From positions 1,860,001 through 1,924,000 of the forward strand of contig CM030332.1 of NCBI GenBank assembly GCA_017654855.1: DNA of 64,000 bases, given 5' to 3'. Within the stretch, counting starts at the first letter, position 1, and every line of letters begins with the position of its first letter. A program made the position numbers and the translations under genes. Positions 9,679-30,875 of this stretch are shown here, piece by piece. Below the pieces are notes generated by a model. That model was not told the origin of the DNA and did not search any database. It was given only the letters and a program-made list of their open reading frames with translations. The DNA is from Podospora anserina (lineage: Eukaryota).

Positions 9679-10022
9679 ATGGACCCTAACAACGCCCAAC
9701 ACCAATCCCTCATCCCTCACCCACCCCTCGAGCCCGCCCTGCAGTCATGGACAACAGACGGGTGCCCCATAGTCGACGGCAAATACCTCGATCTCACCAC
9801 CGGCGAGGTCAAGACACACGACGGCCTCGTGACCGGCGGGCCACCCTCGCTAAGGTTGGTGACCTACTCAAGACAGGTGTTTGCACTGTGGATTCGATGA
9901 CCGCGACGAAGTACTCGGTCAACTTGGTTATCATTACTCCGCTCACGAACGGCGAGTTCAGGGAGGCGCTTGGGAGGCATGGGTTGCTGCATGTTGGGGC
10001 GAGTTTGGGGGTTGGATCTTGA
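9679..10022 (+). pseudogene. Unknown protein family, copy 1 (internal deletion with frameshift)
   Basis: MDPNN..DGKYLDLTTGEVKTHDGLVTGGPP, then a frame change at about 9846 to LAKVGDLLKTGVCTVDSM..PLTNGEFREALGR. Both halves align to the ORF at 10436-10816. Confidence 0.6.
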
Positions 10023-10339
10023 CGAGGTGGCCTGTCATGTGAGAGGCGATGATGCTCCAATATCTGCTCAGATCCTATCCAGCAAAGAGCCAAAACGCAA
10101 TCATTGTGACCACCGCAAAGAGTCATCGACCGTCAGTCACCCTATGTATATTAGCCAGGCCTCAGCCCCCAAGTCAGCCAAGTTGAGAGCCACCCATCTT
10201 GATTCGGCCTCGCTTCCAAATGTGCTGGCCGCCACTCAGAACCTCTCACGAACCACCTAACCCAGCCATTGCCCTTGTAAGCCCTTGCCTCAACCCAAGC
10301 AATTGAAGCGGAAGTCTGACAACACCGACTATCAGCCAC

Positions 10340-10816
10340 AACCGCCCCGCAACCAACCACCCCCAGGGCTCGCAGTCGCCATAGCACAATCAAGGAACTC
10401 AAACTGGGTCAACATATAGGACGGTAAATTGGTCCATGTACCCACCGGTCGAGGTCAGATCACGCGACGGCCATGTGATCGGTGGACCGCCGGCACAGGT
10501 TGCCTGGAGCAACATGGATCTAAGGCGCGATCCCAAGGACCGAAAACCATCAGATCCGGTAACTTGCTCCCTTGAGATCATAATGACGGAATACCTGGCC
10601 AAAGTTGGGGACTTTCTCAAAACAGGAGTTATTCGTACCGCAGATACAATCAGTATGCCAAACAGGTATGCCATCTACTTGCGTGTCAGTACTCTGCTTT
10701 CGAATGACGAGTTTAGAAAGGTTCTTGTGCGTGCAGCGTGGGTTGCTGCAGGTTGGGGAGAGTTTAAAGGCCGAGTCAACGTTTTATTTAGAAACAAAAT
10801 GAACGTTTCAGGTTGA
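10340..10816 (+). pseudogene. Unknown protein family, copy 2 (5' stop and frameshift; 126-codon ORF remains from ATG 10436)
   Basis: TAG 10417-10419 precedes DGKLVHVPTG. An extra C at 10450 is followed by EVRSRDGHVIGGPP..LAKVGDFLKTGV..LLSNDEFRKVLVR, homologous to copy 1. Confidence 0.55.
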
Positions 10817-12173
10817 AACTCCAACTTTCGGCCGAGTCAAGCAGCAAGCTTGCTTTGTGGCTGACTTCAATGATAGCTGGCCGCCAGAACGCCGTGTCGG
10901 ATACCGCAGAGCTTCTTCTCTGGTGGGTCGGAGATCTGTTGTTGGGCTGCACTAGGTGCTTTCGGATAATACTTATAGGGTATGCGTATCGGTATAGGAG
11001 GACGCCGAGGGCGGGTAAACGGGCATCGGAGCTGTGTGGTGGCCATTGTAGACTTCAAGTCCTGAAGGGTCGTGTGGCGACAGCGGCGAGATGGGATTCT
11101 GTTTCAAAAGTCAGCATGAACGCGGTGTAACATATCTCTGATGATAATCCGTACCTTTCGCGAGTGGTCTCCGGGCATTGTGAGTAACCACGCGGTCGGT
11201 GATAAAGGAAGGAATGGGGAAATGGTGGGGGAAGGCTAATAGGTCTGGATGCGGGCTCTGGAAGGATTTGAGGAACTGACCCAACCCCATGGATCAGGTT
11301 CAGGGAAGGGCCGCGCCATGCCTCTGCTACCATGCCACCGGCCACCGACCACCAACGTCCATAACATAAAAGCCAAAAAGCCCATCACAAGTCGAGAATC
11401 GACTAACCAAGGCCAAGAAATGGTCGACATTGCCCTCAATCCAATCAGGAGGCGGCCAAGTGTTACACATGGTGCCGATCTGTAGCAAACCCCTTTTCAA
11501 GGAGCGAAGGGCTGCTTGCGCCATCCCGCAACAACAACAAAGGGACCATAGAGACACAAATCTTTCTTTCTCATGTGAAATAAATCAATGTGATCTGTCA
11601 TTCCTCCTCCAGAAGGCCATTATTCCCACCCAGCTCTCCCAAAATCAAGGCTAGCCCATCGTGCAATACATCGACACGGCGATGGCGCAAAGGACTTGGT
11701 GAGCATGATGACGGACTTGGTGTTGGCTGCGACTGTTGCGCTGGTTCGTTCTGGTTGTGTTGATGCCAGTTGTGGCAGATAGTTCACAGGAGTGGCTGTG
11801 GTATATAATATGGGCAGGCACTGGCCATCCTCATTCAGGTCACAGTAGAGCAACTTCCACCATGCGTGGCGGTGTGGGTGGGAGATAACAAAGCTCTGCT
11901 TTGGTAAGAGCCCGCCCGCTGCTTTGCTGTTAGCCGGCCACAGGTAGCCTTCCCTAGAAAGCCTATTCCGCTATTTCAGGTTACTCTCCTAGGCCGCAGT
12001 CTCGCGCGGTTTAAGGTTACATGACTGCCTACATCATCGCTACTATCCCGACTATAGGCATTCACCAATGGGACTCCGATATTGTTGGTATCCAACGAAA
12101 GAAAGTCAATTTGTATCATCGATCGCTACAGTCTATCCAAAACTACAGCTATCCCGTCGGTCTTCCTCGCAGT

Positions 12174-15100
12174 CTACTCAGTCACCAAACAAGGCAACAC
12201 CAGCGTCCTCCTCCCCTCTCCCCAACCCTCTTCAAAATAGCCCGCAATCACATCCCCCAACCCCCTAACCCTCGCCTCCTCAAGCCACCTGTCCATCGTC
12301 CAAACCTCAATCTTCCTTCCTGTCCGCCGGGCCAAGTACCCCGCCAACCCCTCGGCCGTGCCCTCGATCTTCTCCTCGTCATCCCCTCCCACATGATGAA
12401 CATACGACACCTTGCTCTTCCCAGCTTGATCCACCGCCAAAGCCGCAGCAACAACATCACCAGCTACCCTCCCCACCTCAGCCATGTCCACGTTCCCTTC
12501 CACCTCCAGCCCGGGTATGTGGGGTACAGCACCCATCTTGGAGCTGAACCGCAATAGGGTTCCCACAACATCTGGTGCGACCTTCACAGCCTCCCCCTTT
12601 CCATCCTCTGCCGTGTATAGTGACACTGGCCTGTGTATCACGACTGTGACTCCCTTTCCAGCCAAGCGTTCAAGCATGACCTCTCCAATCCACTTTGATG
12701 CCGCGTAACCTTCTTTGACTGCTGCATCGGACTCGCATGGCGGGAAACGCGCAAGTGAGCCAGGGGAAAGAGAGTTTCCGCCGTGTTGCTTCTGCGCAAA
12801 GGCAGCAACAGAGGCAGTGGAGATGAAGTGCAGTGGCACCTTCTTTCCTCCCTGGAGTTGACCGGTAAGCACCGCGAATCGTGCGAGCGTTCTTGTGGAC
12901 AGAACATTGGCCGGCTTGAGTGAGTCGTACGTCTTGAGGAAGCTAGTGTCTGCGCCATTGTGTATCATGACGTCTACTCTTGATGCCAATGTCTGGAACA
13001 GGTGTATGGAAAGGCCTAGCAAGGGCGAGGTGAGGTCGCCAGGATATTCTCTGACTTTGGGGTGACGATGGATCCGGCCCGAAGAGCTGTTGGTACCGGA
13101 CCGGACCGCGACGCAGTGCACGGTCTTGACCTGATCGGAAGAGATAAGGTGTTCGAGCAGGTGTTGCCCAAGGAACCCCGTTGCACCTGTGAGGATGACT
13201 TCCAGACCATGCCCTTCAGGAACGCGCTCTTCCGCAGCAGCTGTCTCCAAGGGCAGGTCCTCCTCCAAGAAGCCTTCCATAAGAAGTGATATCTCCTTGT
13301 CCCAATCAACAACAGTCACTACATCTCGCGCTGGATCCTTCAGACCGGTAGTAGCCGTCTGGACAAGCGATGCCATGGCCCCAAGTGAACTTGCCCTAAA
13401 GAGGCTCGGCAACAAGGTGGTATTCTCCAGACCAAACTTCCTCTTCAGCGATGCCTGCAGTTGGATGAGAAGCAGCGAATTGCCCCCCACCCTAAAGAAG
13501 TCGGCTTCCTTCCCCGTGACTGGCGCATGAGCCGTTGGCAGCACCTCCAACCAGATCTCCCGAATTCGCGATTCTGTCTCGGTTAGAGACTCCGCCACAC
13601 CGGTTTCGCCGTCGTCACCGATTTCTGGAAGTGGCAGCGTGTCCAAGGCGCGACGATCCAGCTTCCCGTTCGGCGTCAAAGGCAGCTTCTCAATCGACAC
13701 CGCAAAAGAGGGGCACATGTACGGCGGCAAAGGAAGTCGAGCGATCATGTCCTGCAGGTCAAAGTCCTTGTCGTGTTTGTTGAGAACAACAAAGGCAACC
13801 AACAGATCCCCTTCTCGCAAGGACACAGCAGCTTGGCTCACATTCTCTGCCCCAGCCGTCTTGACAATCACAGCTGCCACCTCGTCCAGTTCAACCCTGA
13901 CACCCCTGATCTGGACCTGCGCATCGCCCTCAATACGACCAAGGCATTGAAGTGATCCATCGGGCAAGAACCGACCCAGGTCTCCCGTGCGGTAGAATCT
14001 TGTGTCCCTCATGCTAAATTCCAAGGCAAACGGAGGGTCGATGATGAATCTAGTCACTGGTTCATTCGGCCTGGTGACATATCCGCCTGCTGCAACACCA
14101 GCTCCTCCAATGCATATCTCGCCTGGGAATCCCTCTGGAACTGGCTCCAGTTTGTCATTGACGATGACGACGGTATAGTTCGGCATAGCAGTCCCAACAT
14201 CGGGGTCTTCATCCCGATCCTTGCGGCGATAGTCGACAAACGTCCTGGTGCACGAAACGGTCCCCTCTGCCGGTCCATATGCATTTACCAATCTCAGATC
14301 TGTCAGTCCCAAAAAGGCAAACGCGTCCAGGTGATTCCGCGTCAGCTTTTCCCCACCACTCACGGCCAACTTCCAGGTCGTGCACTTTCTCAAACCCTCC
14401 CCGCCAAAGCGGATCAGGGCAGCATATTCGGACGGAACGCCAACGGTGTAGGTGACACCTTCGTGGGCCATGATCTTTGCAATAGAAGCTGGGTCTCCTC
14501 GGACACTGTCTGGTACCATGACCACCGTTCCTCCATGTGCCAGTCCACCAAAGATCTGCTCCAGGGAGCAGTCGAACCCAAGTGAGCTTTGCTGCAGAAC
14601 CGTCTCCCTTTTGATGTCATGCAATGACTTTACAGCAAGGACTTGGTTGAGAATATTTGTGTGTGACATGATCACGCCTTTCGGACGGCCGGTGGAGCCG
14701 CTGGTGAAGATGATGCAGGCCGGGCTGTCACTTGCAATGTTGAGAGGGAGTTCATGCTGGTCGTGGTTGTGATTGTTGGCTTTGACTGAGTCGATATCAA
14801 CGATTGGAACGCTTGACCCAATAAAGCCCTGAAGAGTAGCTAGGTCCTCTTCCCCCTTGCACAGCAAAATATGAGGCTCGCAATCCTCGAGCATCAGCGC
14901 CAGCCGCTCGAGAGAGTTACGCCGTTCAAGGGGCACATAAACGCAACCCGCCGCCATGATTGCCAGCATTGCGCACAGGATGTCCCCCAGACCGGTGGCG
15001 TAAACTGCGACAGTCCTTCCTTTCCCGACAACCTGCTGCGCCAGTGCGGTTCTGATCACACCGACCCTCACCATTAACTGCTGATATGTGATAGATGCCG

Positions 15101-18100
15101 TTTTATCCTTGATGGCGATACTCTCAGGGTATTTCGCCGCCATCCGGAACACTCGATGAATGACGGTAACATCCTCGTTGATCGCCATGTCAGGTCCAGT
15201 CCCAACCATAACACCCCGCCTGGCACACTCCTCGTCAGCAAGGCGAAGCTCCTGCAACGCAGGGCTTACTGCGCCATCCATTCGATAAACCAACCCCTCC
15301 AACAATGTCACAAACGACCGCCCCAGCACCTCAGCATCAAACTCCGAGTACAAGTACTTCTGTACTCCAAACCCAATCCGCACCCCCCCATCCCCAATAT
15401 CTGTCACGTCCAGGTGCAAGTCGAACGGATTCCTCGCCACAACCATGTCAGTCCACTCAACCTCACAGCCCCCTCCCCAGTTGGACTTTGACGACCCATG
15501 ACCAAGACGGTAGTTGATCGCTACCTGGAACAGCGGGTGATGGTCACCACTTCTCGGAATGTACAACTTTGTGACAAGAGCGTCAAACGGAAGAGTAGAG
15601 TGCTCCAGAGCAGAAAGCATCGCCTCCTTGGTCGACGACAGCAAATCATCGAACGAGGCATTTGGAGAAAGCGAGAAACGCAGGGCGAGCGAGTTGAGAA
15701 AGTACCCAATCGTATGCTGGAACTCATCACCCTCTGGACGATTAGAATCCATCACTCCAATAACCAAGTCTGACACGTCAAGCCATCTGGACAGAAAAGC
15801 TGCCAATGCTGCAAGACAAAAGTGGAACTTGGTAACTCGTGCTTGGGTGCACTTTGCCTTGATAGCTTTGGCGAATTTGGAGTCGAGTTTCACCTCGAAC
15901 GTGTGAGATCCAAAGGGCGGGTCTTGAGGGCCGCCAAGCTGCTTGCGGTGTCTTGACTTGGCGAAGGGGAAGAGAGGGAGCACTGAAGGTGTGATCTGGT
16001 AGATCCCTTGCCAATATTTCAAGTCGCGCTCAAACTTGTCAGGGTCGGCACATAGTTGAAGTTGGCGTTCAGAAAGATCAATCGCCTGGACTGGCGATGG
16101 CAGGAGTGTCAGGGCTTGTGGGTCCGAATACCCTAGTTGGAGCTCATACAAGAACTGAACAAGGCTTACGCCGTCCATAATGAGGTGATGGTAGGCGACA
16201 ATGATCCAAGCTTCCGTCATCGTGTGTCGGACCACAATGGTACGCATAACCTCGCCATGCCCAACATCAAACTGATGGTTCTTGACGGCTGTGAGCTGTG
16301 TATTAAAGTCGTCTTGGCTCCCTTCCAAGACTTCCACAGAAAGTCTGCTTGCACCATGAACGGCCTGCCGCCCGCTTGCTGAGTCAAAGAAGAACGAGCT
16401 TCGAAGAGCTTCATGTCTTGCAGTAACTGCCTTGATAGTTCTCTCCAGCCTCGCGAGGTCCAAACTACCAGTGAACTTGCCCGCAATGACACAGTTATGG
16501 GTGGACTTGTCTTGCAGAAAGTTATCAAGGAAGAGCAGGCGATCTTGACCATGAGATGTAGAGCCAACACGAAAAATACCATGCTCAGAGACATTGTCAT
16601 CGCCATGGTTCGTACTCTCAGCTGGTGTGGCTGTTCCAGTGTTGCTCACTTCAGTTGAAGGAGCAAATGTTGGCTCAACCGGGGATGAGCCAATGTTCAT
16701 GTGCCGTAATATCTCGGCACCCAGCTCTCGAACGGACGGGCTGTCCAGAATCTTGAGTGCAGGCAGATTGACACCAAGTTCTTTGGAGATCCATGTGCGA
16801 AGTTGAATAGCCACCAATGAGTCCAGTCCAAGTGACAAGAGCGGTGCGAGTGGATCGACCTTTTGCTCAAGTGGAATCTGAAGCGTGTGTTGCAACTTTC
16901 TTCCCATCGCTGATTCCAGCACAGCCAACGCAGTGCCAGAAGGGGCAGACGTAATACTTTCCATCAAGCTGACCTGCTCAACCGATGAATCCGCGTCAGT
17001 CCCTGCTTGCCCCTTTTGTGAAGCGACACTGCCTTCAACAAGAAAGTGCGACATGCGAGGAAGGTTGAACCAGCTTGGCCGGCGCGACTGATCTGGATCC
17101 GACAAATCCCAAAGCCCAAGGCCAGTAAGGAGATCAGCCTCCCTATCAAAGTTCCTGCCGCCCGCAAAGATTGCCTCGGCAAACATGACGTGCAAGTCAG
17201 CCTCAGACAAAGGCTGGGTGTTGTGTTTGCTGGCCAGCTCAACGGCCTCAAAGGCGTTGGATGACTTTGTCAGATACCCCACGTCAGACAAGACACCAAT
17301 GTCAATGACACTGGCCGGAACACCGCGTTTTCTTCTTTGCTGCGCGAGGCCTGTCATAAACAGGTTTGCTGCGTTGTAGTTGGCCAACCCGGGAACACCA
17401 ACCACACTGGATGCCGATGACAGGAAAACGAAGAAATCCAAGTTGTCTGAGGAGCCAAAGGCAGCTTCGAGGTTGATTGAGCCCTGCACCTTGGGCCGGA
17501 GAACCGCGTTCAGATCTTCCAGCGTCAGGTTTTCGAACGCTCGGTCGCGAAGAATCATGGCACCATTGACCACGCCTCCAACCGGTGGCATTTCAGGCTC
17601 CATGTCGGATACTCCCGCAACGGCGTTCAAGACGCTGTTGCGGTTTGACAGATCCAGTGGTAATACCTGCAATTTGGCGCCCTTGTGAGCCAGCTTTTCA
17701 ACTTCGGTGCATTCAACCGATGGGTTGCGGCTGGCTAAGATGAAGTACCGTGCCCCATGATCAGCCATCCAGTTGCAGAGTGAAAGACCAACCGATCCCG
17801 TGAGGCCAGCCAGGAAGTAGGTTTTATCGGAAGAGAGCAGGTATGAACCTTGGAGAGGGCGGACGAGCGATTGAACAGCTGTTTCACTGGAGGAATGGAT
17901 ATTGGTCCAGTCGACAATGGTGGTTGGGTTGGCGGTGTGGGAACCAGCTGCCAATAGCTCGGCAGGTACCAGCCGCGATCCGAGTCTCGTTGACTCATCG
18001 TCCTCTGTACTTCTCCTCAACTTGAGCTTTGCAATAGCATCACCGAACGACCCCATAGAAAAGGCAAGATCCACAACCCAGCCATTTTCTTGACGTGCAG

Positions 18101-21100
18101 GTATCTTAAATATCCTGGCAGACTTGTCGATCGCACTCCGGATCTGTTTTGAGATTGCACTGTTTTGATCTCCAAAGTTGACATAAACAGAAACGCCGTT
18201 CGTCGGCGTCACACGTTGCAGCCTTCGCCTTGTGGACTGGGAATGGATGAAGGTGTATCCATATGCATCCTCCAATTCTGGATTTGTAGTGCTGCAAAAC
18301 AGGTCAACCTGTTGCCTTCTTGCCTCTTCCCAGATTTGTGAAACAAAATCCTCAGTTGCCTCGTGAACCCAGACGCAGTGTCCCGCAGTCGAGTGAGAGA
18401 GTATAGCCTTGATAAGAAGTTGCCTCACTACATCTGTTAGCAGGCCTGCTGCGTGACATGCCATATCATCGTCGAGAATTGTGGGGACAGCCATGTGCGA
18501 GTTGTCCACTTTGATGACAGAATTATTGAACCGTGACAATGCAAAAAACCATTGTCCACTGCTTTTTCCACGGCCAAGACAAATGTAGACTGGCTCCGGC
18601 GACTCTTGAGTTCGAAATGCGCAGAGTGTAGAGTACTCCACAGTAAGCAACACCTTTTTCTCTCGAATCTGGCCAGACAAAAGCTCAGGTCGTTGATGCA
18701 GCGCAAATGATCCGCTGTCATCGAGTGCGGGCACCAGTGACAATGGCACAGTCGGCGAGGACTGGTTCGTTTCAATCCCAATGGCCCTCCTTTCTGAGTT
18801 GAGCCGATCATTCCTCTCCTGACTCAGCTTGATCCTCGGCAGCATTTCCATCCCATCTTGACCAACCCGAAACTCCGTCTCCTTACTCCACAGTACATCC
18901 TTTTGTTGACCCTCCCCGCCCCCAAGAAACACCATTCGCATAAAAGCCGAAGCAACCCACTGTGAAAATGCCACCGAGTTGCTCCCAGCTTCCCACCCCG
19001 AATCAACAAACTGCAACGGCCGATCCGGAAACTCCAACATCACCGACCTCGCAATCCCCAGCACCATCTGTGCATGAGGTTGCCGCCCATCATACGCGCC
19101 ACTCGTCACCCACAATACATGCGTCGCCTTGCAGAGAACATTCTGCAGGCCCAAGAAGATCTCGTTGCTGATTTCGCTCTTCGCAAACACAGGTTCCACC
19201 AGCTCCGTTAGGCAAATGACCGCTGTATCCTTTGGAAACCCGTCGCTGAAACTTTCCAACCCCTCTGAACATACAGCAACAGTCTTCGCAGCTCCCGCAG
19301 TCAAAAGCGCTCTCCGAAGATGGTTCGCAACTTTTGTAACGGCCAAGTCGGCCCCGTTGCCCAGGATGAGGACCTCTTTCAGGGAACCCCTGAGCGTTGC
19401 CCCGCCAACGTCTGACCAAAGCGGCTCCCTCAAAAACAACACCCTTTCATCAACCGCTTGACTGACCATCACCGAATAGGTGTAATACTTGGGATCATCT
19501 TCCAAATCTCTCGCAACAACATCAACACCAGAGAACCCACTCTGTAGCAGGACATCATGCCATCTCGCCTCACTGATCAACGGCGAAAAAGGCCGTGCAT
19601 CATCAGCGCCAAGCCACCAGCCTGAGAGGGTGCCAAAAATGAATTCGGTGTGTAACGCGTCACCGGCTGCGGTGTTCTCCAACAGGAGCAGGTAGCCCCC
19701 GGGACGGAGAAGCGTGCGGCAGTTCTTGAGTGTTTCGGTCAGCTTCGGTGTAGCGTGCAAAACGTTGGAAGCAACGATGACGTCGTAGGCACCCTCCTCG
19801 AAGCCTTGCTCCTTGACTGGATCGCGGCCAATATCCAGAGTGCGGAAAATCATGTTTCTTGAAGGATGACCTTCAACAAAACGCTCGTGGGCTTGTTCGA
19901 AGAAGCCGGAGGAGATGTCGGTGAAAGTATACGACGAAAACTTGTCTGAGATGCTCGATAGGATGGCATTGGTGGCGCTCCCTGTCCCGGCACCGATTTC
20001 GAGGAAGCGAAGGTGGGGATAGCGGTGGACGATTTGGGCGGCTGCTTTGGCGATTCGTCTGTTGGATTGCTTCAAGCCCAGACTACGCTGGTAATAATCT
20101 GTCAAGAGATTCTCTTGGAGAAGGAGCTGTAGGGAGTGCACGCGACCAGCAAGTATGTCGGGAAGTGCCTCACCAAGACGGATAATCGTGGTCAGATCCA
20201 CTAGGCTTGGGTACTTCTCGGACCACTCTGTCATCATCCGCGGGTTGTCTTCAGCCCAGTCTTTCGACACTCGTGGATGGTAACTAGCTTCGACACGAGC
20301 CAAGACGTGGTTGACTGCCCAATTCCAGTAATCAATCAGATGCGGGTGTGCTTGAGACACAGACTCTAAGGGCACACCCTCTCGGAGTTGGCGAAGATAA
20401 AAGTACGCCGCACGGTTGACTATGTCTGTTGTAGTCTTGTATAACTCCATGTCATCTTCGACGGCATCACTGTCAATCCCCGCCATGATATCTCGCATCC
20501 ATGTGGTCTCTGAGAAGATGTTCCGGTCATCCTGGGCGTTGAACGAGCCGAATGGTGCACAGCAGAGACCTTCCATCTGAATCTCCGGATAATTATCCTC
20601 GGAGCCGAACACCTCCACGTCGCAGGAGATTTCATTCGAGGACACCTTCCGGATGAAGCAGTCCGCAGATAGATAATCCTTGCTGGACTTTTTCTCCAAC
20701 AAACGAGCTAGATCAACACGGACGAGATCAATGGACCGCGGGAGGTAGGTCTTTGGCAACATTCCGTTCTGGGCCGAAAGAGCAGCCAGGAGACCATGAG
20801 AAGCGACATCCAGAATTGCAGGGTGCAAAAGCATCTGATCCTCACACTCGACAGGTCGACCAAGCTTGACACAGGAATACCCTTTTGTTCGCTGGACCTC
20901 CTGGGCTAGGAAGTCGCCAGAGTATTGAAGTCCGGTCGAACGCAAGGATTTGTAAAAGAGATCTATGTCGACGGCATCCAGGTCGGTCAGTTGAAGCTCT
21001 CTCCGAGGCAATACAGCCTTTTCTGGGCCATGCTCGGATCTTGAGCGATCAATCGTGAGAACAACTCGGCAGGCGAAATTCCGGCGGGAGTCGTCAATGC

Positions 21101-24100
21101 CAACCTCGGCTTGGGCATTGGCAAGTGCGCTACTGCACGAGAACTCAGCCAAGATTTGGGCTTGTTGATTGCCAGTGTCATGAATATCTCCATCGACTCG
21201 CAACGTTGAGAAGACCTCAGTAGCCGTAGAATCGTGATCTTCCAGAGTGATAGCACGGTGGATGCTGAGGTCCTCCAACTCCACCAGTACGATTGACTTT
21301 TTGTCACCAACCAACGTGATTCCGGCATCCAACGCCATGGACACATAGCCTTGAGCAGGGAGAAGTACCTGACCTTGAAACTTGTGGCCACTGAGCCACT
21401 CAAGCTCGTCAAGCTTCAGTATGTTACGCCAGCGTCTCTCTTTCGGGTCACTGTCTTCGAGACGGGACCCCAAGAGAGGATGAGGACGCGTATTTCGGGT
21501 GCGGAAACTCTTCGACGCTCTGGATTCTCTCCAAAGGGGCTTGTCATGGTCCCAAGAATAATGGGGCAAATTCTTGCACACCTGGTAATTCTGTTTAGAC
21601 CACTTCTCTGGTCCTAGACAAGCCTTGGTGAACCCCTCAAAGTCAACCACAGGCCTGGCGCTTTGAATTCCTTGGGGAGAACTTGAGCTGAATTGTGTCC
21701 AGATAGATCCCAGCGTCTCCTGTATTGCTTCCAAATCGTCCAAACCCCTCTTTAGTGTCCCGCCATGAGTCAATTGGACACCCATGCTGGTGATTGTGTC
21801 TTGAGTCGGTCGCTTCAGGGCAGGATGTGGTCCAACTTCGACAGCCATAATCCTGTCAGACGCCATTCCCTCGGTGGCCTTCTCCAGGGCTTGGGAGAAC
21901 AGCACCGGGTTCACCATATTGTCGATCCAATATTGGGAGGACAGGGAACTGACGTCCACGGGAGACTCTGGATAAACGCTCGAATACCAGATTGTGCTGC
22001 TCGTTTTCGCTGTCGGCTTGATATCGCAACTGACCAAGAATCTCCGGTAATCAGGAACAAACTGCTTCATATGATGAGAATGATACGCAGTGTCGACGCG
22101 AAGACCTCTCGCAAAGACCCCCTGTTCATTCGACAGCATGTTCAGCGCCTCATCAATAGCATCAAGGTCACCAGACAGGGTGACACTGGTTGGTGAGTTA
22201 CAGGCAGCAACACAAAGTCTGCCAGCGAATTGCGGGCGACCACAAAACATCTTGGCATCGTCAACAGTCATGTCGGCAGCCAACATGCCACCTTTCTTTG
22301 CCTTCTCGTTGATCCGGGAACAAGCCAGGCCGCGGTAATAGGCGATGCGAATGGCTTCGGTAGCGGTCAGATAACCCGCAGCGTAGGCAGCAGCGATTTC
22401 TCCAGATGAATGACCGGCAACCCGTTCAAAAGTAATACCTGCACTTTGAAGGAGGTTGACAAGACCAATCTGTACTGCTGTGCAGAGTGGTTGAGAGATC
22501 GAGGCCTCTTGCAACCGACTCTTGTCTGATGCCGCCCTCAACTCGACTTCCAGCGACCATGAAGGAGGATTCTCTGGCACAGTGCCTAAAGCATGCTCCA
22601 ACTTCTGTATAGTTTCTCGAAACAAGTGGCTCGATTCAAGCAAACCGGTTGACATGGTCGCCCACTGTGCTCCCTGTCCCGTGAAAACTCCTAGAATTGG
22701 GAGAGACTGGCCAGTGACGACAATAGATTTGCTCCGTGGAAGGTCGAGAGATTTGGAACCCTTCGTGGACTGCAGCCAGGCACCCACTTGTTGCATCAGG
22801 GTGACTTGCGTTCGGCCGGAGAAGGCCAGCTTGAAAGGCAGTTCTGACCGTCTATTCTGCAGGGTCCATAATAGGTGGCCGAGGTCACCGTGGTGTTGTC
22901 CAAGGCCATCTTTCAGGACTGACAGGAGCCTTGCTGCTGTTTCCATGAGAGACTGAGGTGAGTTCGCGGAGAGAAGCAGAGGACCGCATGCCTCGCCATT
23001 TACATTCTCCTTTTCCCAGCTCTCAACAATAACATGACAATTGGTACCTCCAAAGCCAAAACTATTGATACTGGCACGGCGCGGAACACCCGGTGGAAGA
23101 TCTGGCCATTTTTGCGGTGTGGTGGGTATTTCCAAGTGTTGAAAGAACGGTTCAACTGCAGGAGAAAGACGACTGAAATGGAGGTTTGGTGGAATGATCC
23201 CATGTTGCATGGACAGAGATGCTTTCAGTAACCCGGCAAGCCCAGCTGTGCCTTCGGTATGACCAACAACAGTCTTGATAGAGCCCACAAGCAGTTTACC
23301 AGTGGCTGTCGAGTCATCCGGAAAGAAAGCAGTCTGGACTGCACGAGCTTCAATGGGGTCTCCAGCCGGCGTGCCCGTACCATGGGCTTCAAAGTACTGG
23401 CACCGATCCTGAGGGGAAAGGACATTCAAACCACACGCAGCGTAGGTGGATCGGATAAGATCGGCCTGTGAGGTAGCACTGGGCATAGTAATACCGGTGG
23501 TTCGGCCGTCTTGATTGACACCGGTTTGCCGTATAATGCATTCGATATGATCCCCGTCTCTGAGTGCTGCAGACAGGGGTTTCAACAGGACAGCTGCAAC
23601 CCCATCCCCTCTTGCATATCCGTCGGCATTCGCATCCCACATTGCGCAACGTCCATTGGGAGATAGCATGCCGAGCTAAATATCACCACCATCAGCATCA
23701 TATCCACACCAGGAGGTAGTGTCTGGACTCACATTGGACTCAAAGATGAATTGCTCGGGCCCAAGCAGCAAATTCACGCCTGCCGCAACGGCAATTTTGG
23801 ACTCGCCAACGCGCAACGCTTGAACGGCGAGATGCAATGCAACAAGGCTGGAAGAGCAGGCTGTATCGATGGTGACGGATGGCCCGTTCCAGTCAAAGAA
23901 GTATGAGACACGATTAGACATGATGCTCCTGGCCGTTCCAGTGGCTGTGTACTGAGGAGCACTGTCGACATTGCGGAGAACAACATCGTAGTAGTCGCCG
24001 TTTAGTTGACCAACGTAAACACCAGTCGAAGACCCTTTCAGTTGTGATATTGGATATCCAGCAGCTTCGAGAGATTCGTACACGACCTCGAGTAGGAACC

Positions 24101-24446
24101 GCTGCTGCGGGTCCATGGACTCAGCTTCTTCCCTGCGTATACCGAAGAAGCCATTGTCAAACAGCCGGGAATCTTCTTCGAGAAAATATGCCTTTTGTGT
24201 ATTCGTAGTCTACAGAGCAAGGTTAGAGACCACATAGAGTTTGTATCACATCATAAGACTTACGCCATGATGCCGCGAATCCTGATGATAAAATCCAGAG
24301 AGATTAAACCTTGATTCTGGAATCTGGGCTGAGATGTCACGGGGGTTGGACAAGAGATCCCACAGTCGTGAAGGGGAGGAAGCACCACCAGGGAATCGGC
24401 AACCCGATCCAATAATGGCAATGGGCTCAGGAATTTGTGAAGCCAT
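12174..24446 (-). CDS. Iterative hybrid PKS-NRPS (KS-AT-DH-CMeT-ER0-KR-ACP-C-A-T-R), about 4050 aa
   Basis: [64 protein letters not shown] and HPAILD; CMe[91 protein letters not shown]. Introns 24263-24210 and 23732-23676 restore one frame. Alternative ATG at 24461. Confidence 0.97.
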
Positions 24447-24998
24447 ACTGAACACAGGCATAGGCCACTAGGTGTGCATGTAGGTAGGTCGTTCTGTCCT
24501 GCTCGATAGCCTCGGAAACTTTGATCACTCCGTGGAGTCTGGCTGATGGTGGAAGGCCTAAGAACGCGTGCAACATCATGTTCCTCGTAGATGTATACTG
24601 ATGCTTGCATCTGGAATTCATCAGTCACTCAGTGTGAGTGCCTAGCCACCTAGGCAAAATTCCTATTCGGGAAGGAGATGCCGCCTTTCGTGACATCGTG
24701 TCAGAACCTCAACGGCGAGTTCGCCTCAGTGGTGCAGAAACGAAAGTGATGACAGGCATCTCTGTCATCCATGGTAACTAGGGCTGAGGTGTATGGGTCT
24801 ACTGTATACATCGAGTACCGCTCGATGGCATGCCGCAGTCCCGTCGCTCCTTCGGGACTTTGGTAAGCTAGGCATTTCTGCCGTTGGATCTCGAGCATTT
24901 AAGAGGCGTTGGCTTGGTTGTTGAATGGATTAGAAGCTCCCAAGCTCCCAAACCACACCACCTTTGAGAAAATCACCAATAGCGGAAACCCGTGCATA
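24447..24998. promoter_or_regulatory. Divergent (bidirectional) promoter region between PKS-NRPS and hydrolase
   Basis: 552 bp between head-to-head start codons at 24446 (-) and 24999 (+). Confidence 0.7.
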
Positions 24999-26285
24999 AT
25001 GAAAAGTTTGGCACCCCAATTCACCGAATTCTTCCGCTTTGAGCTACTTCGGATTCTCGGAACGGCACCCTTCCACGGCTGCGACGTAAGCGAGTGGGCA
25101 GAGGCGACGGAGTCAATCAAGCAAGATGACCCGGAAAGCTGGTATGGAGCGTGGACGCAGGCAGCAGAGAGAGTCGAAGTAATGGCGGAGGAAGCCATGA
25201 AGAACGGTGATCATCATGGGGCAAGATGGGCATTCCTGCGGGCGTGCAACTACCGACGAGCCAGCGAGTTCATGTTGCATGTGCAACCCAGCGATCCCCG
25301 ACTCCTCGCATCCTTGGTCAAGGCTTCCGACAATTTTCGACAGGCCAGCAAGTTACTGAATAGCCCTGTTGAAACATTGGAGATTCCTTTCGGCAATGGC
25401 TCGACGCTGCCGGGGTATCTGTTCCTGCCAGCGGGAGGCACAAGGGCGGGTCACCGTCAGGAAAAGATGCCAATCCTGGTGGCAACCGGCGGTTTTGATT
25501 CAATTCAGGAAGAGCTCTTCTTCGGCATGGCTGACGGTGCTCGTGTACGGGGCTATGCTTGCGTCACTTTTGAAGGGCCGGGACAAGGAGTTGTGGCACG
25601 ACGTGGTACTGACCGGCTCCTGCTGCGCCCCGACTGGGAGGTTGTAATCAAAGCCGTTCTCGATCACATCTTCCAAGTAGCCGTTGCCAAGCCGCACCTC
25701 AACCTGGATCTGTCCCGCATCGCGTTGGTTGGCGCGTCGATGGGTGGGTATTTTGCTCTCAGGGGTGCAACCGACCCCCGCGTGTCCGCTGTCGTTTCGG
25801 TGGATGGGTTTTACGACCTCGGGGAGATGATGGCGTCCCGTACTCCTCGTTTCCTATGGCCTGAGAGCCTCGGTGACGGAATCTTCAACTGGCTTCTCGG
25901 GTCAGCACAAAGGTGGCATTTTCAGACACGTTGGGAGTTCCAACATGCCATGCTTGCAACGGGCGCTACTACACCAGCCGAAGTGTACCGGCAGTTGGCT
26001 CGCTATCATCTGCGCGGGCCTGAAGGGGGTCCGAGTGTCCTCGATCGGATCAAGTGCCCGGCCCTGATTACCGGTTCGAGGGACACGCTGTATTGGTCGT
26101 TGGAGGAGAGCACGTACAGGATCGTGCGGGAGCTGACGAGCCTCGAGGAGGGGAAGGACAAGAAGGTGTGGATTCCAACGGGTTGGGGACAGGGCTCGCT
26201 GCAGGCCAAAGTCGGAGCCTTTTCCCACTTTCATCACAACATGTTTTCGTGGTTGGACGACGTGTTCGGGATTGGCGCTGAGTAG
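24999..26285 (+). CDS. Alpha/beta-hydrolase of the type found beside reductive-release PKS-NRPSs (PsoB/Fus2/CcsE-like)
   Basis: FELLRILG..GCDVSE, RACNYRRASEF, LPGYLFLP, GGFDSIQEE, FEGPGQG, RPDWE, nucleophile elbow GASMGG, C-terminal GQGSLQAKVGA. Intronless. Confidence 0.88.
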   Translation: MKSLAPQFTEFFRFELLRILGTAPFHGCDVSEWAEATESIKQDDPESWYGAWTQAAERVEVMAEEAMKNGDHHGARWAFLRACNYRRASEFMLHVQPSDPRLLASLVKASDNFRQASKLLNSPVETLEIPFGNGSTLPGYLFLPAGGTRAGHRQEKMPILVATGGFDSIQEELFFGMADGARVRGYACVTFEGPGQGVVARRGTDRLLLRPDWEVVIKAVLDHIFQVAVAKPHLNLDLSRIALVGASMGGYFALRGATDPRVSAVVSVDGFYDLGEMMASRTPRFLWPESLGDGIFNWLLGSAQRWHFQTRWEFQHAMLATGATTPAEVYRQLARYHLRGPEGGPSVLDRIKCPALITGSRDTLYWSLEESTYRIVRELTSLEEGKDKKVWIPTGWGQGSLQAKVGAFSHFHHNMFSWLDDVFGIGAE

Positions 26286-26904
26286 CAGTCGTCGGAGCCC
26301 GAGGGTATCATGGAAGGATCTGAATGGAGTGGAGTTTGTCTTGGTTTCGTCTTAGAAGCGATGGTTTAACCATCATGGCACCATGGTTGAACAACGAGCG
26401 AGAGCGAAAACGAAGGCGACGGTGACAGCTAGGGTCAGACTCCGGGACAGGAGATGAAGGCACCAAAGAGGAAAGTGACATTGGTAGCTCGTAAGGCTGT
26501 TAGCGTTAGATTCCGCCAAGTGGTGGCGTCCGGGGATGTACGTCGCGCTGTTGCGCTGCCCGTTTGACAGTGCCGCAGCAGGTAATATACTTTTGTGGAC
26601 CTCTCTATGCCGCCCACATGGAAAGCCTTCTTTCTCGTCAGTTGGGCGGTAATTGTTTCAATGATACCTGGAAGTTATCTGATGCTGCCATAGCTGCATC
26701 GATTGGAATATGGCTGGAAATCAGCACAACCAGGGAGTGCAAAGGCTTAGGGGTAGCCGTACTGGACTTTTTCCAGCCTGGTCTTGTCACCAGGCATCCC
26801 ACCTTCGTTCTCTCCTCAAAGGCGCTTTCTCCTGCCAGAGCCGTTGACTTCCAGGTTTGTGCACCTGAACACCTGGGTTCTCTGCTCCACCCATCCTGCC
26901 CGCC

Positions 26905-28797
26905 ATGGACGCCACGACAGAGTGCAAAACGCAAAGTCATGATCCAACTATCGAGCCAGTCCCAACGGACGGGCAAACGGGAGGTCGATATGGCTGGCGC
27001 TTCAGTGTAAGTTTCCATGTTCTCGCGGTTTAGACCTACCTGGTACAGTTTGCTGACTCTCGTTGGCGCACTCAGGCAATTCTCGTCGCCCTATCTCTGA
27101 CTTCGATCCTCGCCGGCCTCGAAATCGGATGCATCGCCACTGCTATGCCCACGATTGTCAAGGCTCTTGGCACTGGAGATGAAAGTGAGACTATCTACGT
27201 CTGGGTTGCCAATGCCTACTTCCTCACCATGACGGCTTTCCAGGTGTGTTTCTTGCCCCTCCATTTTGTGCCAGCCGGCGGGACTGGCAACACGGACGAC
27301 AAAAGAATGACGCTGACTTGCTTTCTCGCATTGATATAGCCTCTCTACGGTCAGGCTGCCAATATCTTTGGCCGGAGAACCATGACAGTGCTAGCCGTTG
27401 TATTCTTCGCCATCGGATCTGCGATCTCTGGCGCTGCTAGCAGCATGCCCATGCTCGTAGCCGGGAGAGCTATTATGGGCGTTGGTGGTGGCGGCATTCT
27501 CGTCATGATCGAGATCATCATCTGCGATCTCTGCCCCCAGCGCGACAGGCCCAAATATCTGGGAATAGTGATGAGCATCTTTGGTCTGGCCATGTGCGTT
27601 GGTCCACTGATCGGCGGTGGTCTGGCAGAGCATGCGAGCTGGAGATGGATCTTCTATCTCAACCTTCCCGTTGCTGCTGTCTCCCTGGTCCCACTGTTGC
27701 TTTTTCTGCGCGTCAAATACAAGAGGGACGCGATTGGAAAGATGCTCGCGCGGGTAGACTGGGGAGGAAATACTCTTTTCGCAGCAGCTGTCACGTCCAT
27801 TCTAGTGGCGCTTACCTGGGGAGGGACAGAACACGCTTGGTCGGCATGGCAGACACTTGTTCCGCTATTCCTCGGAATTGCAGGTCTAGGTCTCTTTCTC
27901 TGGCTTGAGTCAACAACACTCATTGAGCAACCAACAATGCCTCTCCGACTCTTCGCCAACCGCACCTCTTCGGGAGCATTCGGTCTTACCTTTGTCGCTT
28001 CCATCCTGACCTATTGGATGGCGTACTGGCTACCTATCTACTTTCAAGCTGTCAAAGAAGATTCCCCAACACAGTCTGGAATCTCTACGTTACCTGTGTC
28101 GATGATCATGATCCCCTTCTCGATTCTTGCAGGTGGCGGCGTGACAGTACTCGGAAAGTTCCGCCCATTCCAATTCGCAGGCATCTCTTTGATGACCATA
28201 GCCATGGGCCTGTTCTCTCTTCTGGACATCGAATCGTCAAAGGGACATTGGGTCGGCTTCCAGGTTGTTGCTGCTGCCGGCGGCGGCTTGCTGCTAACCT
28301 GCACACTCCCTGCCGTCCAAGCACCACTTCCTGAAGCTGATGTTGCCATTGCCACAGCAACTTGGGGGTTCTTGCGAAGCTTCGGTGGCATCTGGGGCAT
28401 CGCCATCCCAACTGCCATTTTCAATTCGCATGTAAACACCTTGCTCGACCAAGGCCGAGTGAGCGAAGAGGCTGTTGTCAACGCCTTGCGAAATGGCGGC
28501 GCATATGCCTTGGCTTCGGTGGGTTTCATCCAGTCTATTCCACCCGATATCAAACAGCAGGTCAAGACGGTCTACGTAGAAAGCTTGCGGCTCGTGTGGC
28601 AAGTTGCTATCGGATTCGGCATCCTTGGCTTTCTTATCACAATCATTATCAAGGAGGTCAAGCTACGGGAGGATCTTGAGACTGATTTTGGACTCGTCGA
28701 GGGAGCCAATAACAGTTCCAGCTCAGAGGTGGCTGCAGAAAGCGGGAGAGGCGTTGTGGAGAGTAAGGCCGAAAAGTCCGTGACCGGCACAGCATAA
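26905..28797 (+). CDS. MFS drug:H+ antiporter (DHA2, 14-TM) efflux pump
   Basis: QPLYGQAANIFGRR, GRAIMGVGGGG, GPLIGG, WRWIFYLNLP, FLRSFGG. Introns 27007-27075 and 27244-27339 give a continuous frame from ATG 26905. Confidence 0.93.
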
Positions 28798-29251
28798 TAG
28801 ACGGTGGCCTGTGCCGGATGGATCTGGTGAATCGGTTTCCGAAAGGTTACTTGTGTTGGTTCGGTGTTGGAGAGGACTCCGTTCCGTGGGGCCGGATGGA
28901 GGTTTGTATGCGGCGCAGCTTTCACCCGTGTATAATTGTAACGCAACTTTTGCCTTGTTACCTATGCTTTCTTGGATCAGCCAACCTCTATACACACTGA
29001 AAACGACCTGCCTGTTTGGTCTATCCCAGCGGCGGGAATGGCTGACAATTAGGTACACATCGCTCTGGGTACGTTGAAACGCAGCGGCGTGGCACTGAAT
29101 TAGCAGCACCGCAAAGGATGCACGGGCACGGCGCATACGGTCACACTGGTTGGATAAAGCCCCGAGGCGGCAAACGCCAAAGGTCGACTGCTTCGAGTCA
29201 ACTCACCCTCATTCTTGCTGTATCACTTATCCCTCCCGAAAGCTCAACAAC

Positions 29252-29755
29252 ATGGCCGACCAAGCTGCCGCACCGCCTCAGCCGCCTACTCAGCTCATCA
29301 AGTTCAGTGTTTACCTCTACAAGAAAGAGGATATTGACTACGATGAGTTTCTCAACTGGGTGACCAAGGAGTACCCCTCCAAGGCAGCCCCCATCATGAA
29401 AAGACACGGTATTGTGCAATGGACACAGGTCAGCGTCCTTGACAAAGACAAACATCTGAGAATCTCCGGCTTACACCCTACAAAACAGACCGTGACCCCT
29501 CCGCATTTCCGGACCCCCTTCCGCGCTGCTCTTCAGCACATGGGAAGGGACAAGTGGACGGTCCCCGACTACGATGTGGTCATGTCGTATTGGATCCCCA
29601 CCCCCGATACCATGCAGGCTCTGACCCAAGACCCTGAGTGGATCGAACTGGAGACCAAGGAAGCAATGCCGCGGGCTAACATGACAGTTGGTCACTTTGA
29701 GATAGGGCATGAGATCGTCCAGTTCGGTGAAGTACGGTCTCAGGGAACTGCTTAG
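29252..29755 (+). CDS. EthD-like (dimeric alpha+beta barrel) protein, about 147 aa
   Basis: KFSVYLYKKEDIDYDEFLNW..HGIVQWTQ..DYDVVMSYW..ALTQDPEW..IGHE matches the fungal EthD/AurZ/TpcK pattern. Probable in-frame 60-nt intron 29429-29488 (GTCAGC..CAG). Confidence 0.75.
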   Translation: MADQAAAPPQPPTQLIKFSVYLYKKEDIDYDEFLNWVTKEYPSKAAPIMKRHGIVQWTQVSVLDKDKHLRISGLHPTKQTVTPPHFRTPFRAALQHMGRDKWTVPDYDVVMSYWIPTPDTMQALTQDPEWIELETKEAMPRANMTVGHFEIGHEIVQFGEVRSQGTA

Positions 29756-30875
29756 ATCAAATAGATGTATACCTGTAAAATACCAGGGTGTATCTAGCTC
29801 AAGAAGAACTGAATCGAAAATGAGGCCGCTTTCTCCAGTTTGGTATCACGTCATACTCAGACTCTCAGCAGTTACCTACCAACATCTAGAAAGAAATATG
29901 ACTGAAGTGGACCCACAGCAATCCTTCAATGTCACAGTTTGATTCTGGGCAACATTTGCACCCGCACCAATCTCATCCCACATGGCAACAAGTTTTCGAG
30001 TTGTTGACTTTGCTGCCTTGAGCCTTAAAGATGGGGTATTCGTATTTCCCTCGGTCTCAGCTTTCTTCAAGACATCCCGGTCGTTTACACCCCCTTCAGG
30101 TAGGTGTCATTATATATGCGCCTGTGCCATAACGGTGCGTATCTAGCTGACTTCGCCTCACACGGGTGTCTATCGCAAACAGTTACCGCCCGGCTATAGA
30201 CAAGTTCCAAACACTACCACGTTAAATCCGAGTTTCTCGGCAGCTGAACAAAACGGGTGGTTCTCCCGTGTCGGGTTGCGGTGAAATAGATTGCGATGGG
30301 ACCCTTCTGTTATAAGCCGTAGTGTTACTCACACATCCCTACAGGTTGCTTCGCCACGAGTTCTGGGCGTAAGGCACAGCATTTGGTAATTGCTTACTGC
30401 TATTATTCCCCTCTCAGATTCTTGGCCATAATGGCTTGAACGATACTTAGGTACCTCGAAATAGCACACACTTTAATCGGCAGGTTTATGCTTTCCAGAA
30501 GGGAACTTTTCTGCGGCAATGTAGGTGGGTGGTCAAGTAGGCAGTATGAGACTGAGGAAGAGGCACAGCACTCAAGTCACAGAAGTGTGTGAGGCGAGTT
30601 CGAGGGATGGAATGAACTGCAGATTTCGAACCATGATCAGTATCATGGTAGTTGGATTTGTACTGCATACCCAGCCCCCACACAGATCTGTTAATGTATA
30701 ATGTGGCTTGCTTACCCTTGAATTCCTCCGATTGTCTACCGCAACAGCCCTACCTCCCACGTGGATTTCTGGCAGACCTCAACCCTCACTATTCTCCTGG
30801 TCATTGGTACTCTTCCGTTCACTTGCACTGGTCAATCACCCCGTCGCCCACCGGTGACGCTCGTACTCCTTGACC

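What the first reader, a model, noticed from the sequence alone, without database searches (positions are those of the whole stretch)
12174..29755. Minimal PKS-NRPS cluster (hybrid + hydrolase + EthD-like + MFS) with no trans-ER, oxidase or regulator
Seen: an intact hybrid with apparently active KS, AT, DH, CMeT, KR, C, A and R motifs and a degenerate ER region. It sits next to only three genes, and the flanks (pseudogene stretch on the left, PTH11/PLC genes on the right) hold no enoylreductase, P450, FMO, lipocalin-type Diels-Alderase or Zn2Cys6 gene. Known: most fungal hybrids need a LovC-type trans-ER; those lacking it (fusarin Fus1, pseurotin PsoA) give unsaturated chains and pair with this hydrolase type. 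Inference: the product is a methyl-branched polyene joined to an amino-acid-derived pyrrolinone and tailored only by the EthD-like protein. I do not recognise this four-gene combination from a characterised pathway, so it is the best candidate for an undescribed system here.
Basis: partly seen in the sequence, partly recalled or inferred. Interest (0 to 1): 0.75.

Follow-up and report, generated by a model that had tools for sequence, protein, structure and literature searches.

The report
Orphan Podospora PKS-NRPS cluster with EthD
This is a real, intact and transcribed four-gene cluster of the dung fungus Podospora anserina that should make an unknown polyketide-amino-acid compound, but its gene set is already known from the flavipucine pathway and this very gene was catalogued in 2020, so it is an uncharacterised member of a known kind rather than a new system.

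Summary
Window 12174-29755 carries PODANS_1_5210 to 1_5240. These are a 4058-aa KS-AT-DH-CMeT-KR-ACP-C-A-T-R hybrid with every core motif intact and no ER signature, a 428-aa alpha/beta hydrolase, a 575-aa MFS transporter and a 147-aa EthD protein. No ER, P450 or Zn2Cys6 gene, and no ER relic, was found in the 64 kb. Spliced contigs from four runs of four studies remove all five introns, so the genes are transcribed.

The claim that the combination is unrecognised does not hold. The flavipucine cluster of Aspergillus terreus has hybrid, hydrolase, two EthD proteins and MFS, plus FlvB and two regulators. Minami et al. 2020 list this exact protein (CAP60208) in a predicted, functionally unknown clade II-beta whose key modification enzyme is EthD. 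Their table does not mark a trans-ER as absent for Podospora; about 8 kb of their flank lies outside the window.

The pairing with EthD recurs in other Sordariales and Xylariales. The EthD model is closest to CTB10, whose native role is unclear.

Most likely mechanism: reductive release, Knoevenagel ring closure to a pyrrolinone, one EthD-dependent step, then export. The product is unknown.

Verdict: new member of a known kind; interest 0.35.

The parts
12174..24461 (-). PKS-NRPS hybrid gene PODANS_1_5210 (4058 aa). Exons 24461-24264, 24209-23733 and 23675-12174 (stop included); introns 24263-24210 and 23732-23676.
   Evidence: Translation and tblastn against CAP60208. Both introns are removed in contigs of 4 of 4 runs laid.
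21711..24461 (-). KS and AT domains (DTACSS, HGTGT, GHSSG).
   Evidence: Pfam; motifs.
19527..21482 (-). DH and C-methyltransferase domains (LEIGAGTG).
   Evidence: Pfam; motifs.
17823..19526 (-). Spacer between CMeT and KR with no ER signature.
   Evidence: No ADH Pfam hit; no NADPH motif.
16716..17822 (-). KR and ACP domains.
   Evidence: Pfam; motifs GLTGSVG, YNAAN, LGLDSL.
13341..16556 (-). NRPS module: C (HHLIMD), A and T (GGNSL). The T-domain limits are approximate.
   Evidence: Pfam; motifs; PDB matches.
12516..13193 (-). Terminal reductase domain with TGATGFLG and YAASK intact.
   Evidence: Pfam NAD_binding_4; motifs.
24462..24998 (.). 537-bp divergent intergenic region between the hybrid and the hydrolase; presumed shared promoter.
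   Evidence: Gene models. The promoter role is inferred.
24999..26285 (+). Alpha/beta hydrolase (428 aa; by position PODANS_1_5220), putative Knoevenagel cyclase. Nucleophile elbow GASMG.
   Evidence: Pfam FrsA-like and Abhydrolase_6. The serine aligns with the GRSLG elbow of chain 2jbw. Gene model.
26905..28797 (+). MFS transporter (575 aa); introns 27007-27075 and 27244-27339.
   Evidence: Pfam MFS_1 and TRI12. Both introns are removed in 4 of 4 runs. Gene model.
29252..29755 (+). EthD-domain protein PODANS_1_5240 (147 aa); intron 29429-29488.
   Evidence: Pfam PF07110. Identical to P0003/CAP60211. Intron removed in 4 of 4 runs. AF2 model and CTB10 fold match.

Best explanation
This is a functional, transcribed four-gene secondary-metabolite cluster of the Podospora anserina group (PODANS_1_5210 to 1_5240).

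Proposed route:
1. The iterative PKS part (KS-AT-DH-CMeT-KR-ACP, no ER) builds a methyl-branched chain. The chain is unsaturated unless an unlinked ER takes part.
2. The C-A-T module joins the chain to one amino acid.
3. The reductase domain, with its nucleotide motif and Tyr/Lys intact, releases an amino-aldehyde.
4. The neighbouring alpha/beta hydrolase closes it by Knoevenagel condensation to a 3-acyl-pyrrolin-2-one.
5. The small EthD protein, a dimeric alpha+beta-barrel fold with a pocket, performs one further cofactor-poor step. My guess is oxygenation, dehydration or isomerisation of the pyrrolinone or its side chain.
6. The MFS pump exports the product.

Shown: gene and domain content, motif integrity, splicing and transcription, conservation of the hybrid-EthD pairing, and placement in Minami's clade II-beta.

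Inferred: every chemical step, the product class and the role of EthD.
For: - Intactness: 4058 aa without a stop, all core motifs present, and 2 of 4058 residues different from strain S mat+.
- Transcription: contigs of runs X1, X2, X3 and X6 (four studies) lack all five introns at GT..AG borders. A single spliced contig covers almost the whole hybrid mRNA in 3 of 4 runs.
- Conservation of the hybrid: orthologues of 80, 74, 50 and 50% identity in Cercophora, Apiosordaria, Madurella and Chaetomium. Each has an EthD orthologue on a contig of the same length; the Madurella fahalii tags are _03686 and _03689.
- Wider pairing: 4 of 10 further EthD representatives looked up share contig length with a hybrid hit, for example Hypoxylon texense Hte_008872 and Hte_008874.
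- Clade placement: 10 of 10 nearest named hybrids map by accession to Minami's EthD clades II-beta or II-gamma.
- Hydrolase: the nucleophile serine is present, and the nearest solved relatives include two enzymes that act on C-C bonds by my recall (DHPON hydrolase, AntI) and a Yellowish-green 1-like (Ayg1-type) protein.
- Precedent: flv pathway reports describe reductive release by FlvA and first ring closure by FlvD (PMC13525150).
Against: - No product is known, and no chemistry was tested.
- Minami's Table S4 leaves the trans-ER cell blank for the two Podospora entries. By their usage for Fus1, PsoA and FlaA, a blank means present. About 7.8 kb of their 20-kb flank lies left of the window.
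- More distant relatives do carry ER genes (II-gamma rows; P0037 N-terminus).
- The closest solved EthD fold, CTB10, has no defined native reaction.
- The amino acid cannot be assigned.
Confidence: 0.6

Rival explanations
1. The four genes are not the whole pathway. A trans-acting enoyl reductase encoded elsewhere works with the hybrid, so the chain is partly saturated rather than a polyene. The ER could be the one implied by Minami's table, within 20 kb but outside this window, or an unlinked one.
For: The trans-ER cell is blank (present, as I read the notation) for CAP60208 and VBB71893 in Table S4 of PMC7421883. II-gamma relatives mostly have a trans-ER. The Diatrype stigma relative P0037 carries ADH_N and ADH_zinc_N at residues 28-242, directly before its KS.
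Against: There is no ER gene or relic in 12 kb on the 3' side and 39.5 kb on the 5' side of the hybrid. Any ER left of the window would be separated from the hybrid by beta-galactosidase, PALP-enzyme and sugar-transporter genes and a 4.9-kb gene-poor stretch. The A. terreus FlaA row and three further rows of the 11 readable ones in clade II-C lack a trans-ER.
Confidence: 0.25
2. The cluster is a flavipucine-type pathway: a short polyketide plus a branched-chain amino acid, with the pyrrolinone rearranged to a 2-pyridone.
For: The accessory set is the same apart from FlvB and the regulators: hydrolase, EthD, MFS, and no P450. Minami's tables place II-beta and II-C in the same major clade II.
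Against: The hybrid is listed in II-beta, not in II-C. There is no room for a further intact gene between the four genes, and the unassigned left flank shows no gene-like family hit. FlvB is reported as needed for the C-N cleavage. Only one EthD gene is present, against two in flv. The CMeT motif is intact, although by my recall flavipucine has no C-methyl branch.
Confidence: 0.08
3. The cluster is a decaying relic that makes nothing.
For: No regulator gene is present. A gene-poor, possibly pseudogenic stretch lies next to it.
Against: A 12-kb frame is open with all motifs intact. The protein is 98% identical between P. anserina-group species and is conserved with its EthD partner down to 50% identity. 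Correctly spliced transcripts of all the genes appear in four studies.
Confidence: 0.04

Closest known systems
Flavipucine (flv) cluster of Aspergillus terreus NIH2624: FlvA (ATEG_00325), FlvD, FlvF/FlvG, FlvH, FlvB, FlvC/FlvE. Original work: Wei et al. 2021, Org Lett (not held). Read only through PMC13525150.
   Same: A PKS-NRPS with reductive release, an alpha/beta hydrolase for the first ring closure, EthD-domain protein(s) and an MFS transporter. No P450 and no trans-ER in the A. terreus cluster.
   Different: This cluster has one EthD gene instead of two, no transcription factor and no recognisable FlvB. Its hybrid sits in clade II-beta, not II-C. Direct sequence comparison was not possible.
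Predicted natural-product clades II-beta and II-gamma of Minami, Ugai, Ozaki and Oikawa 2020 (PMC7421883, Table S4).
   Same: CAP60208 itself is listed in II-beta with EthD as the key modification enzyme. 10 of 10 nearest named relatives map to II-beta or II-gamma.
   Different: These are bioinformatic clades with no known product. Most other II-beta rows are marked as lacking the hydrolase, whereas Podospora has it.
Pseurotin synthetase PsoA (PDB 9x29) and the pseurotin and fusarin clusters.
   Same: ER-less hybrids of the same domain order that pair with a hydrolase. PsoA matches over its whole length at 1917 bits. The pairing with a hydrolase is from Minami's tables and my recall.
   Different: Those clusters carry P450, methyltransferase and other tailoring genes that are absent here (their gene lists are from my recall). 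Uncharacterised relatives score higher than PsoA (2784 bits).
CTB10, the EthD-domain protein of the cercosporin cluster (PDB 9iku and related entries).
   Same: Best structural match of the EthD model: Foldseek E 6e-10, TM 0.71-0.84, about 25% identity.
   Different: CTB10 belongs to a perylenequinone pathway and acts together with the dioxygenase CTB9. Its own reaction is unclear. No dioxygenase gene was found here.

Membership tests
Fungal PKS-NRPS hybrid with terminal reductase | Domain order KS-AT-DH-CMeT-(ER0)-KR-ACP-C-A-T-R in one protein. | tested here: met
   Pfam; motifs; full-length match to PsoA and LovB.
Fungal PKS-NRPS hybrid with terminal reductase | R domain keeps the nucleotide-binding glycine motif and the Tyr/Lys pair, marking a true reductase rather than a Dieckmann cyclase. 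The criterion is from my recall. | tested here: met
   TGATGFLG and YAASK are present.
Clade II pyrrolinone clusters (Minami 2020) | The hybrid falls in clade II of their phylogeny. | tested here: met
   CAP60208 is listed in Table S4 and equals the window's protein bar 2 residues. I built no tree of my own.
Clade II pyrrolinone clusters (Minami 2020) | A putative Knoevenagelase (Fus2-type alpha/beta hydrolase) lies next to the hybrid. | tested here: inconclusive
   An alpha/beta hydrolase with an intact serine elbow lies 537 bp from the hybrid, and Minami's table scores a hydrolase as present. Direct homology to Fus2, PsoB or FlvD was not tested.
Flavipucine (flv) cluster | The hybrid is of the FlvA/II-C type. 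| tested here: not met
   It is listed in II-beta, not II-C.
Flavipucine (flv) cluster | FlvB, the hypothetical protein for oxidative C-N cleavage. | not testable with these tools
   No FlvB sequence was available. No unassigned intact gene lies inside the cluster, and the left-flank ORFs have no family hit.
Flavipucine (flv) cluster | Two cluster transcription factors (FlvC, FlvE). | tested here: not met
   No Zn2Cys6 Pfam hit and no Zn2Cys6 motif in six frames.
Flavipucine (flv) cluster | EthD proteins, an alpha/beta hydrolase and an MFS transporter. | tested here: met
   One EthD, one hydrolase and one MFS by family. Orthology to FlvF/G, FlvD and FlvH was not tested.
EthD family (PF07110), dimeric alpha+beta barrel | Match above Pfam's gathering score, and a ferredoxin-like beta-alpha-beta fold. 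| tested here: met
   37.8 bits against a cutoff of 22. AF2 model with pLDDT 88 and four strands plus helices. Foldseek hits include CTB10, methylmuconolactone isomerase and EthD protein BH0200.
Fusarin or pseurotin cluster | P450, methyltransferase and GST-type tailoring genes. The gene lists are from my recall. | tested here: not met
   None was found in the window.

The most novel reading that the evidence does not exclude
EthD-domain proteins are the signature, and here the only, tailoring enzyme of a whole uncharacterised branch of fungal PKS-NRPS clusters (II-beta, II-gamma and the flavipucine clade). In this minimal cluster the 147-aa protein would carry out a cofactor-free transformation of a pyrrolinone, such as oxygenation or ring rearrangement. 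No such transformation has been assigned to an EthD-family protein in what I could read. The product would be a new scaffold from a model fungus.
Probability: 0.25. Interest if true: 0.6.

Novelty: new member of a known kind. Interest (0 to 1): 0.35.

Why it matters
Orphan hybrid clusters are common, so the cluster alone is ordinary. Its value is as a test bed.

- It is the smallest natural setting I saw for the recurrent hybrid-plus-EthD pairing. In what I could read, no reaction is assigned to the EthD proteins of these clusters.
- It sits in a genetically tractable, non-pathogenic model fungus.
- It is transcribed without engineering in the sampled runs.

A knockout of the hybrid gene and of the EthD gene could therefore both reveal the product and assign a reaction to this protein family. 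That result would carry over to the flavipucine clade and to dozens of clusters in Trichoderma, Fusarium, Xylariales and others.

Tried and rejected
- Whole genome: none is held, so the 8 kb left of the window could not be read.
- Orthologous loci: two scans of metagenome contigs, with the EthD alignment and with the 50% orthologue P0011, returned nothing. Synteny therefore rests on locus tags and equal contig lengths only.
- RNA runs: no RNA holder is listed for the stretch. The runs are labelled 'RNA? (a guess)'. I use only their spliced joints, not depth, and I rank no genes by depth.
- Papers: Wei et al. 2021 is not held.
- Literature searches: 'EthD'+'PKS-NRPS', a flavipucine/EthD search, flvF/flvG/flvB/flvD, EthD with pyrrolinone, Knoevenagel and related terms, and CTB10 gave no assigned reaction for an EthD protein in a hybrid cluster. 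Gene and accession names of this cluster occur in no main text searched (the three hits are unrelated). Supplements are not covered by that search.
- Earlier findings of this scan: nothing relevant.
- Left-flank ORFs: no Pfam hit even at E up to 1 and no Atlas lead (best score 0.81).
- A-domain pocket: nine motif-anchored positions read DCEVASAVS, the same or with one V-to-I change in 5 of 5 Sordariales orthologues. The positions are from my recall and no substrate can be named.
- I built no tree of my own, because no characterised anchor sequence was available as a protein id.
Full report
**What is there**

The window is fungal. The EthD protein is identical to PODANS_1_5240 (CAP60211). The hybrid differs at 2 of 4058 residues from PODANS_1_5210 (CAP60208) of Podospora anserina S mat+, and at 64 from the P. 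comata protein. The finding therefore covers genes 1_5210 to 1_5240 of the P. anserina group; the hydrolase and the MFS gene are 1_5220 and 1_5230 by position only.

The hybrid lies on the minus strand in three exons: 24461-24264, 24209-23733 and 23675-12174. Pfam gives KS, AT, DH, CMeT, KR, ACP, C, A, T and a terminal NAD_binding_4 reductase. All core motifs I looked for are present (the patterns are from my recall). Between CMeT and KR there are about 580 residues with no ADH-type Pfam hit and no NADPH-type glycine motif.

Divergently transcribed, 537 bp away, is a 428-aa alpha/beta hydrolase (24999-26285). After it come a 575-aa MFS transporter (26905-28797, two introns) and a 147-aa EthD protein (29252-29755, one intron).

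**Flanks**

- Left: beta-galactosidase, a PALP enzyme and a sugar transporter. Then come 4.9 kb (7300-12174) with no family hit, which hold a diverged 759-bp tandem duplication.
- Right: a PTH11-like CFEM receptor, a PLC-like phosphodiesterase, then housekeeping genes.

I scanned 222 of the 341 ORFs of 70 aa or more outside the hybrid. None matched an ER, P450, FMO or Zn2Cys6 family. Six-frame motif searches found no Zn2Cys6 or P450 haem signature. tblastn with the ER-like N-terminus of a relative found no relic.

**Expression**

No run is on record as RNA. Even so, the contigs of four runs from four studies, laid on 11500-30500, skip exactly the two introns of the hybrid, the two of the MFS gene and the one of the EthD gene. 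All have GT..AG borders on the coding strand, in 4 of 4 runs. In 3 of 4 runs one spliced contig spans nearly the whole hybrid mRNA. These contigs must derive from mature mRNA, so the cluster is transcribed in the sampled cultures. I draw nothing from depth.

**Relatives**

The hybrid has orthologues in Cercophora samala (80%), Apiosordaria backusii (74%), Madurella fahalii, Chaetomium fimeti and one JGI record (all 50%). Everything else is at 42% or below. The two 50% orthologues I scanned have the same domain set, also without ER.

Each of the four named species has an EthD orthologue on a contig of the same length as its hybrid. In M. fahalii the locus tags are _03686 and _03689.

The EthD family has 456 representatives at E up to 0.001. 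Of 10 further representatives looked up, 4 share contig length with a hybrid hit. These are Hypoxylon cercidicola, Podospora aff. communis, Hypoxylon sp. FL1857 and H. texense (tags Hte_008872 and Hte_008874). The hybrid-EthD pairing is therefore recurrent and not a local accident.

**Literature**

1. PMC13525150 (passages and sections 10 and 13 read) summarises the flavipucine cluster of A. terreus:
   - PKS-NRPS FlvA, hydrolase FlvD, EthD proteins FlvF and FlvG, and MFS FlvH;
   - two transcription factors;
   - the hypothetical protein FlvB, which cleaves the pyrrolinone C-N bond on the way to the 2-pyridone.
   The original paper (Wei et al. 2021) is not held.
2. Minami et al. 2020 (PMC7421883; passages and supplementary files 1, 4 and 5 read) classify 884 hybrid clusters. 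Their Table S4 lists CAP60208 and the P. comata protein VBB71893 in predicted clade II-beta, with EthD as the key modification enzyme. Next to it are II-gamma (also EthD) and II-C (flavipucine, EthD).

By accession, 10 of 10 of the nearest named hybrids I looked up belong to II-beta or II-gamma.

In these tables I read 'x' as absent. Fus1 and PsoA have x under trans-ER, FlaA has x under trans-ER and P450, and CaaA has x under hydrolase. This agrees with the plus and minus signs of their main-text table. Read so, the Podospora rows say hydrolase present, P450 absent and trans-ER present. The last point conflicts with what the window shows. It can only refer to the roughly 7.8 kb of their 20-kb flank that lies left of the window, or to a loose BLAST call. 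I could not resolve this.

**The accessory proteins**

The hydrolase keeps its nucleophile serine, which aligns with the GRSLG elbow of chain 2jbw. Its nearest solved relatives include 2,6-dihydroxy-pseudo-oxynicotine hydrolase, a Yellowish-green 1-like (Ayg1-type) protein and AntI. By my recall these make or break C-C bonds, which fits a Knoevenagel role.

The EthD model (pLDDT 88) matches CTB10 of the cercosporin pathway best: E 6e-10, TM 0.71-0.84, about 25% identity. Methylmuconolactone isomerases, an EthD protein and olivetolic acid cyclase follow. CTB10 is needed together with the dioxygenase CTB9 for the last ring closure of cercosporin, but its own reaction is called unclear (preprint passages). 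The later structural work uses it only as a scaffold.

Across 37 family members W82 is invariant. K17, Y23, F33, D86, Y87, D88, Y93, P108, W110, E112 and G132 are nearly so.

**Mechanism**

Most likely, the ER-less PKS makes a methyl-branched chain, unsaturated unless an external ER takes part. The NRPS module adds one amino acid; the nine motif-anchored pocket positions are the same, or differ by one V-to-I change, in 5 of 5 orthologues, but no substrate can be assigned. The intact reductase releases an aldehyde, the hydrolase closes a pyrrolinone, the EthD protein adds one step and the MFS pump exports. All chemical steps are inference from family knowledge and from the flv precedent.

Rivals:
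- dependence on an ER outside the window (0.25);
- a true flavipucine-type pathway (0.08);
- a dead relic (0.04), which the open frame, the conservation and the spliced transcripts argue against.

**Verdict**

It is an uncharacterised, already catalogued member of the clade II pyrrolinone clusters, closest in gene content to flavipucine. It is a new member of a known kind, with moderate interest, mainly as a clean system for finding out what EthD proteins do.

Noticed in passing
window 9200-10800: A diverged tandem duplication with a 759-bp period (30-nt seed copies at 9977 and 10736) carries ORFs that share a motif of the type LAKVGD(L/F)LKTGV...NxEFR. There is no Pfam hit and no Atlas lead. 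It may be a lineage-specific gene pair or a pseudogene.
   Followed up: partly
window 12300 and leftward: In run X6 the hybrid's contig runs on for 786 letters that match nothing in the window. A 4152-aa variant (P0138) from a contig of the same length sits in the protein cluster. This is either a strain-specific 3' end or a chimeric contig.
   Followed up: partly
window 12174-12300: The hybrid's contigs in X1, X2 and X3 stop 60-105 nt before the annotated stop codon; in X1 the contig ends in what looks like sequencing-adapter sequence. The spot is a G-rich stretch. It may be an assembly break, and the true 3' end of the mRNA is not settled.
   Followed up: no
window 25892-25949: A weak 56-nt joint with CT..GC ends (GC..AG on the minus strand) lies inside the hydrolase gene in 2 of 4 runs (shorter side 29 letters). 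It would shift the hydrolase frame, so it may belong to an antisense transcript or an upstream-starting transcript of the hybrid.
   Followed up: no
P0037 (Diatrype stigma relative), residues 28-242: ADH_N and ADH_zinc_N domains lie directly before the KS of a 39%-identical hybrid. This is either a fused ER or a neighbouring trans-ER gene merged into the gene model.
   Followed up: partly
window 33256-34677: A 474-aa ORF without any Pfam hit matches Atlas clusters of PLC-like phosphodiesterases at scores 0.95-0.99.
   Followed up: yes
The EthD partner is better conserved than the synthetase: 50-60% identity across many Sordariomycetes, where the hybrids are 37-42% identical.
   Followed up: no
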